Assembly (NCBI GenBank): GCA_051313645.2
Contig: JBNRSN020000007.1
Location: 240,374,001 to 240,438,000 of the forward strand
Direction: 5' to 3'
Origin: Centroscyllium fabricii
Lineage: Eukaryota
DNA: 64,000 bases
Under the pieces are notes generated by a model. That model saw only the letters and a program-made list of their open reading frames with translations. It was not told where the DNA came from and made no database searches. Of the stretch, positions 3,601 to 9,600 are shown piece after piece. Position 1 is the first letter of the stretch. Each line of letters opens with the position of its first letter. Made by a program: the position numbers and the translations under genes.

Positions 3601-6600
3601 AAGGACGGCCTTCCAAGCTCCTCCCAATAGGAACTGCTGCCGTTCCTTACAGGCTTCACATAATTCAAACCCTTTGCCAACATCTGGCACTGTACATTTC
3701 TACAGAAGTTAGCATATACGTTCCTGGCAAGCTATGTATGAGGCAATGTAGTCTTCTCTGAAATAGCTTTATTTCTGATGTAGTTGAGGGTTCATCTTTT
3801 AACTCTGGTCAGTTGACTTTTGGGTTCCCCAGGGCTTTGTCCTATCTTGCACGGTACTCCTCCTTCATACAAATGGCATAAAAAATAGGAGCAGGAGTAG
3901 GCCATTTGGTTCCTCAAGCCTGCTCCTCCATTTAATGAGATCATGGCTGATCTGACCTTGAGCTTGGCTCCATTTCCCTGCCTGCTCCCCATAACCCTTC
4001 ACTCCCTTATTGTTCAAAAATCTGTCTATCTCCACCTTAAATATATTCAATGGCCCAGCCTCCACAGCTCTCCGGGGCAGAGAATTCCACAGATTTCCGA
4101 CCCTCTCAGAGAAGAAATTCCTCCTCATCTCAGTTTTAAGTGGGCGACCCCTTATTCTGAAACTATGCCCCCAGTTCTAGATTCCCTTATGAGGGGAAAC
4201 ATCTTCTCTGCATCTACCTTGTCAAGCCCCCTCAGTATCTTAGATGTTTCAATAAGATCACCTCTCAGTATAGGCCCAACCTACTCAACCTTTTTCATAA
4301 GTCAAGCCCTTCCCTCTCCGGAGTCAACCCCTTCATCCCCACTCCATATTTCAACCCTGTCCACTTTTTTTTCCCTCATGATTCCATTCCATCTTCATTA
4401 ACCTGCTTCAGTTCACACACCACTTGCTTATAATCTTGTAATTGTTGAGTGACTGAATTCTTTCATCTTGGTTACTTTTATTCAATTCAATTCAATTCAA
4501 GTTTTATTGTCATTGCAGAGTACTAGTACAATACAACGAGACGAAGACTCGACGCTCCCGAGAGTAGTGCAAATAAATTCCATGCAAATTGCATACAGTA
4601 AAGTACATTATCAGGCATGCAGGTACCGGAGTTTATTTTTAGAGTTCAGGAGGCTGACAGCCCTGGGGAAGAAGCTGTTCTTAAATCTAGTCGTGCGGGT
4701 GCGAATTGATCTGTAGCGTCTCCCGGAGGGCAGGGGGGCGAACAGACTGTGGCTGGGGTGTGTGGGGTCTTTAATAATGTTCAGAGACCTCCGTAGGCAG
4801 CGTTTGAGGTAGATGCTTTCCATTGACGGTAGCTGGGTACCGGTGATTCGTTGGGCAGTTTTGACTACCCTCTGCAGGGTTTTCCGGTCCGAGATAGTGC
4901 AATTTCCATACCAGACAGTGATGCAGCTTGTCAGTATGCTTTCTATTGTGCAGCGGTAGAAGTTGGAGAGGATGCCGGATGACAGCCTGGCTTTCTTCAG
5001 CTTCCTTAGGAAGTACAGGCGCTGTTGGGCCTTCTTAACCAGAGAGGAGGTGTATGCCCTTCAGTGTGTAAATGAAAATCTTTTAAAAATTAGTCAAAGG
5101 CACAGTTTCTTCAATTCAAACCAACAGTTACTATCGTTTGTCTTTGGCTCAAACCTCTTAAAGCTTTCATTTAGCAACATTTTTGGATTCAGCATCTTCT
5201 CTGATCTTCGTCTCTTGTCTTGAGTGAGGATGCCATCCATTGTGTCGTGTGGTGTTCCCACCATGCTAAAGAAGCAGTCTAATTGACAAACCAAAAATTG
5301 GCCATCCGTGAGTGGCTGTAGGTCATCAGCAGCAGTATTGTATGCCACCACAATATGTAACCTAATAACACAGCACATCCCTCACTCCTCCATCAATCTG
5401 CGATATGATTCAGTACAGAGAAGCGGCACCACTCATACGCTTAGCATGAGGCACCAACCTAGAGAAGCTACAACACTGGGTTAACTGCATACCGAACACC
5501 TAAAGCAGCCGGATATAGACAGAACTAAGAAGTTCGCCGACCAATAGATCAAAGCAAAGCTTTGTATCTGCGAGTCCAGTTGAAAATGTTGAATAACTAG
5601 GCAGCTAACTGGGAGAAGGCTCCATGAACATACCCATTCTCAATCATGGCAGAGCAGAGCATTTAAGTGCAGAAGATATGACTGAAGTATTTGCAACCAT
5701 TTTCAACCAGGAGTGCGAAGTGAATAATCATAATTGGCCTCGTCCTGAGGTCCCCACCATCACAGATGCCAGGGCCCAACCAATTTGATTCACCCACGAG
5801 ACATTAAGAAGCAGCTGAGAACACTGGACACCGCAAAGCCCATGAGCCCTGATAAAATTCTGGATGCAGTGCTGCAGACCGTTGAACCATAACCAGCTAT
5901 CCCCCAAGCCTAACTGTTCCACTGCAGCTATGACACTGTTATCTACCTGTTGATTTGTAAGATTGCCCAAGCATGTCCTATCCACAAAAAGCAGAACAAA
6001 TTGAACTGACAAATTACAGCCCTATCATTAGTCAAGTGATGTAAGAACTAATCAATAGTGCCATCAAGCTAACACTTACTCCAGTAACTTGCTCACTGAT
6101 GCTCCGTTTAGGTTCCGCCGGAACACTCGACTACTGACCTCATCACAGCCTTGATCCAGACGTTGATGCAAGAGCTGAATGCCAGAATAGAGGTCGGAGT
6201 AGTTGCCAAAGGCAGCATTTGCCTGAGCATGGTAACAAGAACAACTGGCAAAACTAAGGCCAGTGTGAAAACCCTTCAGTGGCTGGAACCATACCTGATG
6301 CACAGGAAGATGGTTGCAATTGTCTGAGGCCAATCATCACAGCCCCAAAGGGCCAAATTGCTGTAAACTTCTGTGATCGCTGCCAGAGTTCTTGGTCATG
6401 ATGTGGAGGTGCCGGTTTGGACTGGGGTGGACAATTGTAAGAAGTCACACAACACCAGGTTATAGTCCAACAGTTTTATTTGAAATCACAAGCTTTCGGA
6501 GCGCTGCTCCTTCGCCAGGTGAAGTGACCTATTTGAAATCACAAGCTTTCGGAGCGCTGCTCCTTCGCCAGGTGAAGTGACCTATTTGAAATCACAAGCT

Positions 6601-9600
6601 TTCGGAGCGCTGCTCCTTCCTCACCTGACGAAGGGGCAGACGCTCCGAAAGCTTGTGATTTCAAATAAAACTGTTGGACTATAACCTGGTGTTGTGTGAC
6701 TTCTTACAAGAGTTCTTGGTGGTAGTATCCTTTTGTTAATTGTACCCCAATTGTATTCAGGTGGTGGGTATTAATTGGGGACTCGCTTGTGTGGAGAAGG
6801 AAGCTTATCTTGTGGGTGCTCAGTGTGTAATGTGTTTCTCTAAATGAAGTCTGTAATTGGCTTATCAGACTTTTACACCTTTGTCCAGCCACCATCACCT
6901 GCGTCATCAGTGAAGTTGTTTGCTGACTATGCTACAGTGTTTAACTCTATTCACAGCTCCTCTTGTGATCAATGAGCAGACCATGTTATTCCTATATCTG
7001 TGGCTGCAGTGTGTTCTATTTACAGGATGCACGCCAGCAACTCGCCAAATTAACTTTGAAAGCCCCCTCCCAGACCTGTAATTTCAACATAGAAAACATA
7101 GAACATAGAAAAATAGGAGCAGGAGTAGGCCATTCAGCCCTTCGAGCCTACTCCACCATTCAGTATGATCATGGCTGATCCTCTTATCTCTATACCATAT
7201 GCTCGCTCTCTCCCCATACCCCTTGATGCATATTGTGTCTCGAAATCTATCTCCTTATTAAATATATTCGGTGACTTGGCCTCCACAGCCTTCTGTGGTA
7301 GAGAATCCCACAGGTTCACCACCCTCTGAGTGAAGAAATTTCTCCTCAGTCCTAAATGTCCTACCCTGTATCCTGAGACTGACCCCTCGTTCTGGAACCC
7401 CCCCAGCCAGGGGGAACATCCTCCCTGCATCCAGTCTGTCCAGCCCTGTCAGAATTTTATACGTTTCAATGAGATCCCCTCTCATTCTTCTAAACTCTAG
7501 TGAATGCAGGCCTAGTCGACCCAACCTCTCATACGACAGTCCTGGCAGCCCAGGAATCAGTCTGGTGAATCTTCGCTGCACACTCTCTGTGGCAAGTATA
7601 TCCTTTCTTTGGTAAGGAGACCAAAGAACTCCAGGTGTGGTCTCACCAAAGCCCTGTATAACTGTAGTAAGACATCCTTGCTCCTGTACTTAAATTCTCT
7701 TGCAATGAAGGCCAACATAACATTTGCCTTCTTAACTGCTTGCTGCACCTGCATGTCCTCCTCGCAACTCACAATCCCACCAAGTTTCATGTCGTCAGCA
7801 AACTTGGAAATATTACATTTGGTTCCCTCATCCAAATTATTGATATATCTAACCCTGTGGTACCCCACTAGTCACTGCCTGCCATCCTGAAAAAGATCCA
7901 TTTATCCCTACTCTGAAAATTGGTTAACAGACAGGAAACAATCTATGCCAGTATATTACCCCCAATCCCATGTGCTTTAATTTTGCACACTAACCTCTTA
8001 TGTGGGACTTTTATCAAAGGCCTTCTGAAAATCCAAATACACCACATCCACTGGCTCTCCCTTATCTATTCTACCAGTTACATCCTCAAAAAACTTCAGT
8101 AGGTTTGTCAAACACAATTTCCCTTTCATAAATCCATGTTGACTTTGTCTGATCCTGTTGATATTTTCTAAGTGTCCTGTTATCACATCCTTTATAATAG
8201 ACTCTAGCATTTTCCCTACTACTGATGTTAGGCTAACCGGCCTGTAGTTTCCTGTTTTCTCTCTCCTTTTTTTAAATAATGGGGTTACATTTGCCACACT
8301 TCAATCTGCAAGAACTGTTCCAAAATTCTACAGATTATAGAAACATAGACATAGAAGATAGGAGCAGGAGTAGGCCATTCGGCCCTTCGAGCCTGCTCCG
8401 CCATTCAATGAGATCATGGCTGATCATCCAAACTCAGCACCCTGTCACTGCCTTGTCCCCATATCCCTCGATCCCTGTCGAGCCTGCACCGACACATATC
8501 CCACCCTATCCCCGTAACCCCACATATTTAATTACCCTAATACTAAGGGTCAATTTATCCTGGCCAATCAATCTAACCGGCACATCTTTGGACTGTGGGA
8601 GGAAACCGGAGCAGACACGGGGAGAATGTGCAAACTCCACACAGATAGTACCCGGGGCTGGATTTGAACCCGGGTCTCTAGTGCTGTAAGGCAACAGTGC
8701 TAACCACTATGCCACCGTGCCGCCCCATTATGGAAGATGACAACCAATACATCCACTATTTCCATGCTACCTCTTTTAGTACTCTAGGATGCAGATTATC
8801 AGACCCTGGCGATTTATCAGCTTTCAGTCCCATTAATTTCTCCAGCACTTATTTTTACTAATACAGGTTGAACACCATTAATTCGGCACGGGCGAGACCA
8901 GGCCCGCCCCGGTATAGTGAAAAAACTGGAAGAATGAGGCCGTCCAGTGCGCGCGCACCATTCAAAATGGCCGCGCGCATGCGCAGAACATTCAAAATGG
9001 CCACGCGCATGCGCAGAACATTGGAAATGGCTGCCACGAAGTTTTGAATGATCTGCGCATGCGTTCGGCGGCGCATGTGCAGATCATTCGCTGAAGCATC
9101 AATCGCGGCGGCCATTTTGCGCATGCGCAGGGCAGTCGGGGCAATTTATTCCGGACGACTGAAGTTGCCGGCTTTTCGGTTACCCGATAAACGGTCTTCA
9201 ACCTGTACTAATTTCCTTTAATTCCTCCTTCTCACTAGACCCTTGGTTCAACCACCAAGGAGGATGAGCAGCAATGTCATGGTAATGCCATCACCTGCAA
9301 ATTTCCCTCCCAAATCTCACACTCACCTGAGTAAATATTCTGGAATTCCCCACTTAACACTATCCCTACAAGGATTGCATAGCTGTTCACAATACTGTAT
9401 ATATTAATGATCTCGACGAGGGCAATAGATGTAATATCTCCAAGTTTACAGACGACACAAAGCTGGGTGTGTGTGTGTGTGCTGTGAGGAGGATGCAGAG
9501 AAACTCCCGTATGATTTGGACAGGTTGGGTGATTGGGCAGATGTATGGCAGATGCAGTACAGGTTGAGCATCGTTATACTGGCACGGGCAGGACTCGACC

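What the first reader, a model, noticed from the sequence alone, without database searches (positions are those of the whole stretch)
6397..6708. 312-bp ORF-less fold-back element with hammerhead-ribozyme motifs on both strands and a 12-bp TSD
Seen in sequence: an exact duplication AGAGTTCTTGGT flanks an insertion whose arms are inverted repeats. The + strand has a minimal hammerhead (6621-6658; CUGACGA / stem II / GAAA-GC-UU, predicted cut after 6654) followed by AATAAA at 6664. The - strand has two tandem copies (6486-6522 and 6539-6575, 53-bp period, core variant CUGGCGA) plus a truncated third. Established: Penelope-like elements carry minimal type-I hammerheads with a palindromic stem III that are thought to cleave as dimers, and they often insert with inverted terminal repeats. 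Inference: tandem motifs give the geometry needed for dimeric cleavage. The same palindromic architecture recurs at 21255, so this may be a mobile non-autonomous hairpin (retrozyme-like) family rather than a one-off inversion. The + strand motif is in sense within ARFGEF2 pre-mRNA.
Basis: partly seen in the sequence, partly recalled or inferred. Interest (0 to 1): 0.7.

Follow-up and report, generated by a model that had tools for sequence, protein, structure and literature searches.

The report
Penelope fold-back with tandem hammerhead motifs
This is a short, back-to-back insertion left by a very common jumping gene of a known kind (a Penelope-like retrotransposon); its ribozyme motifs are real but are predicted to be folded shut, and its rare tandem ribozyme repeat likely records a slip of the copying enzyme rather than a self-spreading RNA family.

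Summary
The element is two 3' ends of a Penelope-like element (27-nt core: 103,919 matches; long copies encode a reverse transcriptase) joined head to head inside a 12-bp TSD, in an ARFGEF1/2 intron. Such fold-backs are routine here: in a position-ordered sample 36 of 36 TSD-bounded pairings carry the tail on exactly one arm, lengths run 125-2,904 bp and inversion points vary. Arm starts cluster just upstream of the hammerhead, about 30 nt below a TATA-like motif, not at the cut site. The hammerhead-only tandem is rare (about 27 loci, nearly all different junctions); this junction is private, both full units carry A6G, and exposing any ribozyme costs 38-45 kcal/mol. It is not a retrozyme family. 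The 21255 copy is different: one fold-back with strand-polarised A-to-G changes (18:0), amplified about 3,264 times inside a TA-flanked MITE; eight further independent fold-backs show the same ADAR-like mark, so whole hairpin RNAs are occasionally copied back into DNA. This scan had already noted both the fold-backs and the edited MITE cargo on other DNA.

The parts
6385..6396 (.). Left target-site duplication AGAGTTCTTGGT
   Evidence: family TSD mode 12-13 bp (54 of 84 TSD calls)
6397..6434 (-). 38-nt Penelope 'tail', present on this arm only
   Evidence: tail described in PMC11167929 and PMC3846280
6435..6529 (-). Tail arm: 3' end of the PLE pLTR including hammerhead unit 1
6486..6522 (-). 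Minimal hammerhead, core CUGGCGA (A6G), unit 1
   Evidence: variant is 247 vs 25,519 for CUGACGA
6539..6575 (-). Minimal hammerhead, core CUGGCGA (A6G), unit 2
6477..6619 (-). 53-bp hammerhead-only tandem, 2.7 units; unit joints CAAATA|GG|TCACTTC with two G not in the long copies (+ strand CC at 6528-6529 and 6581-6582); third unit truncated
6621..6623 (.). Inversion point with 3-nt microhomology TCA; same junction sequence in L028 with the tail on the other arm
6621..6658 (+). Minimal hammerhead CUGACGA with GGGGC/AGAC/GCUCC stem II (a different family variant from the other arm); predicted cut after 6654
6621..6708 (+). Tail-less arm, ending at TTCTTACA; contains AATAAA 6664-6669, which is part of the family core and is paired in the predicted fold
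6709..6720 (.). Right target-site duplication
21259..21461 (.).
20987..21826 (.). TA-flanked MITE (TIR CAGGTTGAGCACCGTTAATCCGG) that carries the second fold-back; 3,264 junction matches genome-wide
17991..18269 (+). ARFGEF1/2 HUS-domain exon region (host gene, downstream of the element)
38081..38533 (+). ARFGEF1/2 Sec7-domain exons (host gene)

Best explanation
The element is a short head-to-head insertion of two 3' ends of an abundant Penelope-like retrotransposon, likely made when both nicked target strands primed reverse transcription, one from the tail site and one from the site 38 nt inside it, and the two short cDNAs were joined by microhomology, with the hammerhead-only tandem likely arising from a template jump at the RNA 5' end and the ribozymes predicted to be folded shut. 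Shown: family membership, TSD, one-tail rule, variable junctions, clustering of arm starts just upstream of the hammerhead, privacy of this junction. Inferred: a staggered 12-13 nt cut; a pLTR promoter (TATA-like motif about 30 nt above an Inr-like TCACT) that starts RNA 5-10 nt upstream of the hammerhead core, so that short arms are run-off cDNAs; a jump from that 5' end back to 13 nt past the cut site (adding CC), then duplication of the unit; use of at least two template variants, because the arms differ in core and stem II. The copy is most likely inert; in ARFGEF pre-mRNA it would form a long intronic hairpin, a likely ADAR substrate rather than a ribozyme.
For: 103,919 exact matches to a 27-nt core; long copies continue into an ORF with RVT_1. 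36 of 36 pairings with TSD>=8 nt in 84 position-ordered loci have one tail (21 right, 15 left); none of 8 tail/tail or none/none pairings had such a TSD. Even copies with one identical junction carry the tail 13 left: 13 right and differ in subfamily letters, so the junction formed repeatedly. Two RT start sites that bound the tail, and extension of both target strands, are shown in vitro for a lizard PLE (PMC11167929). 35 of 133 arms start 1-20 nt upstream of C3, hazard 0.0168 per nt against 0.003-0.005 in flanking bins; TATA-like motif 34-42 nt above C3 in 54 of 58 long arms. Hammerhead-only tandems of 39-53 bp occur at about 27 loci with almost all different joints, always beside the 5' end. 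Forcing the + ribozyme open costs 44.5 kcal/mol and the minus-strand dimer 37.9.
Against: No RNA ends could be seen: only contigs were served, so the start site is inferred. The test for a cap-derived G was not supportive (GG-TCAC 187 vs AG-TCAC 335), and G-TCAC is native in one subfamily. Arm starts were mapped against 47 long arms; a missing subfamily would create false ends. In most sampled fold-backs the two arms share subfamily letters (N7 discordant 4 of 20 vs 0.64 at random; position 41, 1 of 31 vs 0.39), which also fits self-priming from one template. Eight edited fold-backs show that a whole hairpin can serve as template, so two-ended priming is not the only route. Folding energies ignore Mg2+, protein help and co-transcriptional order.
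Confidence: 0.8

Rival explanations
1. One reading: the 312-bp hairpin is a member of a mobile non-autonomous retrozyme-like family whose tandem hammerheads cleave as a dimer and release a small or circular RNA.
For: Dimer geometry can be drawn and an alternative register loops out both units. Several arrays repeat one joint 2-5 times (window, L244, L261, L263, L180), which rolling-circle copying would give. A 53-bp unit lies at the low end of the 51-972 bp range of vertebrate non-LTR retrozyme consensuses (bioRxiv 2026.07.22.740005). Whole hairpin RNAs do get copied into DNA.
Against: The joint is private (4 of 17 matches, all this locus and its duplicate contig). No joint falls at the cut site (0 of 5). 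Both units carry A6G, a 1% minority change at a core position; that A6 is needed for catalysis is recalled, not checked in a paper. Dimer fold is 37.9 kcal/mol above the hairpin and 17.4 above the minimum even in the isolated fragment. L180 units share private changes, as slippage or unequal exchange would give.
Confidence: 0.07
2. The fold-back formed by self-priming of a single cDNA or antisense template (the model of Arkhipova et al. 2013), or by copying a pre-existing hairpin RNA, rather than by two independently primed cDNAs.
For: Arms usually share subfamily letters and some rare variants (7 of 110 and 13 of 70 against about 1-2% at random); near-palindromic junctions are common (13 of 20 loci read by eye in the AG set); self-priming is proposed in PMC3846280; edited copies prove hairpin templates.
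Against: For one junction the tail sits on either arm 13:13, which a single master or a simple fold-back of one cDNA does not give; in this element the arms are different variants and there is no strand-polarised A-to-G mark apart from the single A6G.
Confidence: 0.1
3. The clustering of arm starts comes from a splice acceptor or an RT pause at the hammerhead structure and not from a transcription start.
For: Pyrimidine-rich stretch before stem I in all subfamilies; 15 of 133 arms start inside the core/stem II boundary; the D. virilis intron ends at helix I (PMC4209133).
Against: No AG precedes stem I in the subfamily sequences seen; the main peak lies upstream of the core; a TATA-like motif keeps a fixed spacing; TATA plus TCACT is also described in a rotifer pLTR.
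Confidence: 0.25

Closest known systems
Inverted-pLTR-plus-tail insertions of endonuclease-containing Penelope-like elements (Arkhipova et al. 2013, PMC3846280; Craig et al. 2021, PMC8557442; passages read)
   Same: Inverted 5'-truncated copy next to a direct copy, 30-40 nt tail on one end only, TSD of about 9-13 bp, microhomology or palindrome at the junction, TATA plus TCACT in the pLTR.
   Different: Here both arms are cut back to the hammerhead, the one-tail rule is counted (36 of 36), and one arm has a hammerhead-only tandem.
Minimal type-I hammerheads of metazoan PLEs (Cervera and De la Pena 2014, PMC4209133; parts 1-2 of 4 read)
   Same: CUGANGA core, extra base between 9 and 10.1, palindromic 15.2-16.2, 4-bp helix I, pairs on opposite strands 100-700 bp apart attributed to truncated PLEs.
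   Different: Two of three full motifs carry A6G; the tandem period is only 53 bp.
Poseidon element of Anolis in vitro (Frangieh et al. 2024, PMC11167929; parts 1-2 of 4 read)
   Same: Two RT start sites bounding the tail, both target strands cut and extended, hammerhead cleavage not required.
   Different: Different PLE clade; that paper does not show, in the parts read, that one strand takes each start site or that short copies run off at a start site next to the hammerhead.
Animal non-LTR retrozymes (Cervera and De la Pena 2020, PMC7229834, passages; Li et al. bioRxiv 2026.07.22.740005, part 1 of 5 and passages)
   Same: ORF-less tandem units each with a type-I hammerhead, derived from PLE pLTRs.
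   Different: Retrozymes spread as families with shared units, mostly canonical hammerheads and abundant circular RNAs; this unit is private, minimal, mutated and locked in a hairpin.
ADAR-type A-to-G hypermutation fixed in avian retroviral DNA (Hajjar and Linial 1995; Felder 1994; seen only as cited in review PMC12925331, passages)
   Same: Clustered one-strand A-to-G changes in an inverted repeat, fixed by reverse transcription (applies to the 21255 copy and L318-L333, not to the 6397 element).
   Different: Here the marks sit in an endogenous retrotransposon hairpin, and one edited copy was amplified by a DNA-transposon MITE and gained a second, opposite-strand set.

Membership tests
EN+ Penelope-like element (truncated insertion) | Sequence continues into an ORF with a PLE-type reverse transcriptase in longer copies | tested here: met
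   L103, L105, L109 ORFs hit RVT_1 (2 of 3 over the cut-off) and end about 350 nt upstream of the same hammerhead end
EN+ Penelope-like element (truncated insertion) | C-terminal GIY-YIG endonuclease | tested here: inconclusive
   VYLI...YIGET, R, H, E, N pattern seen by eye; no Pfam hit in 4 C-terminal pieces, no PDB hit, Atlas unavailable
Neptune/Nematis clade | CX2-5CxxC linker between RT and EN | tested here: met
   CHGNLCKTC in the ORFs fits the motif given in PMC8557442; no tree was built, so Neptune versus Nematis is not settled
EN+ Penelope-like element (truncated insertion) | 30-40 nt tail on one end, inverted pLTR, TSD | tested here: met
   38-nt tail on left arm only, 12-bp TSD; 36 of 36 in sample
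Minimal PLE hammerhead | Intact CUGANGA and GAAA cores, stem II, stem I, palindromic stem III, NUH site | tested here: met
   Met for the + motif; core is nearly invariant across sampled arms except N7
Minimal PLE hammerhead | Intact core in the tandem units | tested here: not met
   A6G in both full units; 247 against 25,519 copies
Minimal PLE hammerhead | Self-cleavage as dimer | not testable with these tools
   Only energies: 37.9-44.5 kcal/mol penalty in the full RNA
Non-LTR retrozyme | Two or more consecutive units each with a hammerhead motif | tested here: inconclusive
   Two full units present, but with a changed core; the published descriptor was not run
Non-LTR retrozyme | Unit spread as a family to unlinked loci | tested here: not met
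   Joint found only here and on the duplicate contig
Non-LTR retrozyme | Expressed as small circular RNA | not testable with these tools
   Only contigs of guessed-RNA runs were served
MITE of TA-duplicating (Tc1/mariner-type) DNA transposons, for 20987-21826 | Terminal inverted repeats flanked by TA, short, many copies | tested here: met
   Both TIRs with TA found in 34 of 41 loci examined (search motif included the TA), 0.83-1.34 kb; 3,264 junction matches. Superfamily label is recalled; no transposase partner was sought

The most novel reading that the evidence does not exclude
In this Penelope family the RNA starts right at the hammerhead, and the hammerhead dimer acts less as scissors than as a clamp that holds two template RNAs together: one target strand is primed from the tail site and the other from the inner site, and a reverse transcriptase running off the 5' end of one RNA lands on the stem-I 3' strand of its partner. 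That would explain the one-tail rule, mosaic arms and hammerhead-only mini-arrays, and would make elements like this one snapshots of how retrozyme arrays are born from PLEs; the resulting hairpin RNAs are then ADAR-edited and occasionally written back into germline DNA.
Probability: 0.25. Interest if true: 0.7.

Novelty: new member of a known kind. Interest (0 to 1): 0.38.

Why it matters
As a locus it is ordinary. As a population the copies bear on an open question, how Penelope elements make their inverted, one-tailed insertions and what the hammerhead is for: the strict one-tail rule, the cluster of starts next to the ribozyme and the mini-arrays give sharp predictions for the existing in vitro PLE assay. 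The side result, RNA-editing marks fixed in DNA and amplified thousands of times by a DNA transposon, is the more surprising biology, but it belongs to the 21255 copy and was noted earlier by this scan.

Tried and rejected
Rfam: no hammerhead family hit; miRNA hits are hairpin artefacts. Cap-G test by counting GG versus AG before TCAC: not supportive. Cleavage-site origin of arm ends or tandem joints: no peak, 0 of 5 joints. A6G as a conserved new core: 0.97% against 0.36% for an A9G control, so at most a small lineage. Tandems favouring the tail arm: 10 of 11 by eye at first, 18 of 29 by script in the wider set (20 counting two shortened tails), so only mild. Empty-site or expression evidence from sequencing runs: contigs only, repeat swamps the signal, nothing concluded. 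GIY-YIG by Pfam, PDB, Atlas: no result. ADAR neighbour preference in the MITE hairpin: 5' G in 3 of 18 sites against 20 of 92 background, no clear depletion. Unedited MITE-borne hairpin: 0 matches. Scan of 345 ordinary arms for hypermutation found only the MITE copy, but those loci were picked by unedited motifs. Lunse et al. 2017 could not be read; no supplements were opened. Literature searches listed no paper on hammerhead-only mini-arrays at PLE junctions or on ADAR marks in PLE fold-backs or MITE cargo; I saw listings only for most hits, so this is not proof of absence.
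Full report
OBSERVATION. The 12-mer AGAGTTCTTGGT flanks 6397-6708; the arms 6435-6503 and 6641-6709 are 100% complementary; a 53-bp unit repeats 2.7 times at 6477-6619. A motif scan of the whole window returns exactly three full minimal hammerheads, at + 6621-6658, - 6539-6575 and - 6486-6522. 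Rfam has no model that finds them. The element lies in an intron of a + strand ARFGEF gene: a DCB exon 3.1 kb before the window, HUS at 17991, Sec7 at 35613-39706; ARFGEF2 scores 129.8 bits and ARFGEF1 128.6.

WHAT IT IS. The arms are the 3' end of a very abundant repeat: a 27-nt piece has 103,919 exact matches in the 7.2-Gb genome and the reversed control none. Longer copies run upstream through an untranslated stretch into an ORF end; loci picked for long frames give ORFs with an RVT_1 hit, a CHGNLCKTC linker and a GIY-YIG-like C-terminus. The linker fits the Neptune/Nematis motif in Craig et al.; the endonuclease was seen only by eye. L105 has the same layout as the window element with a 1.45-kb inverted arm. 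That the host is a shark comes from earlier notes and recall, not from a test here.

HOW COMMON THE LAYOUT IS. I took the first 100 core matches on contig C1 (84 loci). Lengths run from 125 to 2,904 bp. Over all three sets 54 of 84 TSD calls were 12-13 nt. Some junctions do recur: one has 50 exact copies, but in the 30 examined the tail is left in 13 and right in 13 TSD-bounded cases and subfamily letters differ, so it formed many times. Inverted pLTRs with a one-sided tail are described, pairs of minimal hammerheads on opposite strands likewise, and two RT start sites bounding the tail, with both target strands extended and the ribozyme dispensable, are shown in vitro.

WHERE ARMS START. Mapped against 47 long arms, 35 of 133 arms start 1-20 nt upstream of C3 (hazard 0.0168 per nt), 15 in the next 12 nt (0.0105), against 0.003-0.005 in the bins on either side; there is no peak at the cut site. 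Subfamilies differ upstream of the hammerhead, yet 54 of 58 long arms keep a TATA-like motif 34-42 nt above C3, 44 of them at 35 or 37, about 30 nt above an Inr-like TCACT; a rotifer pLTR has the same pair. I infer a start site beside the hammerhead, so short arms are run-off cDNAs. Against this, a count meant to reveal a cap-derived G was not supportive (187 vs 335), no RNA ends were available, and a splice or pause origin remains open.

THE TANDEM. Three patterns found 17, 5 and 31 matches for hammerhead-only tandems. They collapse to 29 loci, of which two look like chance joins and two are duplicates of each other; units are 39-53 bp, several are partial, joints are nearly all different, lie 4-17 nt past the cut site and always take up within about 12 nt above C3. 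One search allowed a joint at the cut site and found 0 of 5. The window's joint occurs only here and on contig C327, which is 99.9% identical over 3.3 kb. The two G at the joint are absent from long CUGGCGA copies. Both full units have A6G, found 247 times against 25,519 for the normal core and 91 for an A9G control. The + arm is another family variant, so at least two templates were used, whereas most sampled fold-backs have matching arms (N7 discordant 4 of 20, position 41 1 of 31, after dropping pairings with TSD under 9, six alternative pairings and four with no aligned partner or duplicated). Repeated identical joints within an array fit either later slippage or a small circular template; shared private changes among L180 units favour slippage.

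CAN IT CUT. On both strands the minimum fold is one long hairpin. Forcing the + ribozyme open costs 44.5 kcal/mol, the minus-strand dimer 37.9, and in the isolated two-unit fragment the dimer is still 17.4 above the minimum. In ARFGEF pre-mRNA the antisense arm is made first and the AATAAA is paired. These are equilibrium estimates without protein or Mg2+. I judge the copy inert.

THE 21255 COPY. It has seven other near-identical copies in a first search and sits between TIRs flanked by TA; the MITE-hairpin joint has 3,264 matches, and 34 of 41 loci examined showed both TIRs. It multiplied as cargo. Relative to the family majority, the older stage (3 copies) has 18 T>C and 0 A>G on the + strand across both paired arms and none in the tail; the younger stage (33 copies) adds 8 A>G and 4 T>C out of 14 changes, 7 of the A>G opposite an earlier C, while the MITE body has only 6 such changes in 39. 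No unedited MITE copy was found. A pattern forcing two A>G gave 16 hits, all with further A>G; 8 independent fold-backs have sense A>G in one arm and sense T>C in the other, that is all on one strand; one locus (two hits) has mirrored A>G and four hits are single arms. This is what ADAR editing of a whole hairpin RNA followed by reverse transcription would leave; the neighbour preference was not clearly met. In L333 the A>G excess extends into the flanks (28 against 11 outside the hairpin), so at least some are copies of longer transcripts, and their TSDs need not mark a new hairpin insertion. Such marks are known in avian retroviruses (review passage), and earlier notes of this scan report the same MITE cargo.

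VERDICT. The 6397 element is a real but ordinary truncated Penelope fold-back with a rare, private tandem of likely dead hammerheads; new member of a known kind, interest 0.38. The population data make the insertion mechanism and the role of the hammerhead testable, and the edited relatives show that hairpin RNAs of this family do re-enter the genome at a low rate.

Noticed in passing
window 20987-21826: TA-flanked MITE carrying a hypermutated Penelope fold-back, 3,264 junction matches; two stages of A-to-G change on opposite strands, the second mostly at A.C mismatches
   Followed up: yes
L318, L319, L321-L327, L333 (around 1350-1600): Independent fold-backs with one-strand A-to-G clusters; L325/L326/L333 share flanks but differ in extent, and in L333 flanking repeats are also changed
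   Followed up: partly
L331/L332 (C1266, 247.5 Mb): Long fold-back whose two arms share the same four sense A-to-G changes, suggesting both were copied from one edited template
   Followed up: no
L180 (C1488), L261 (C1266), L244 (C469), L263 (C1377): Hammerhead-only arrays of 3-6 units (53, 49, 39, 39 bp) with intact CUGANGA cores; better candidates for dimer cleavage than the window copy
   Followed up: partly
L001 vs L002 (C327): Contig C327 duplicates this region at 99.9%, including the DCB exon; probably an unmerged haplotype
   Followed up: partly
window 38081-38533: Two Sec7 exons separated by a short intron of about 140 bp
   Followed up: no
window 31086-31136 (-): Weak CPEB3 ribozyme hit (21.5 bits, E 0.36, below cut-off); probably chance
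   Followed up: no
window 8860-9206, 10100-10270, 49139-49276: Other partial copies of the same MITE family with GCGCATGCGC repeats
   Followed up: no
window 4614-5060, 28395-28952, 32438-34419 (-): LINE fragments with RVT_1 and ALKBH8_N hits
   Followed up: no
family-wide, hammerhead position 7 and loop II: N7 is split almost evenly among G, C and T and loop II varies, while the rest of the core is nearly invariant
   Followed up: partly
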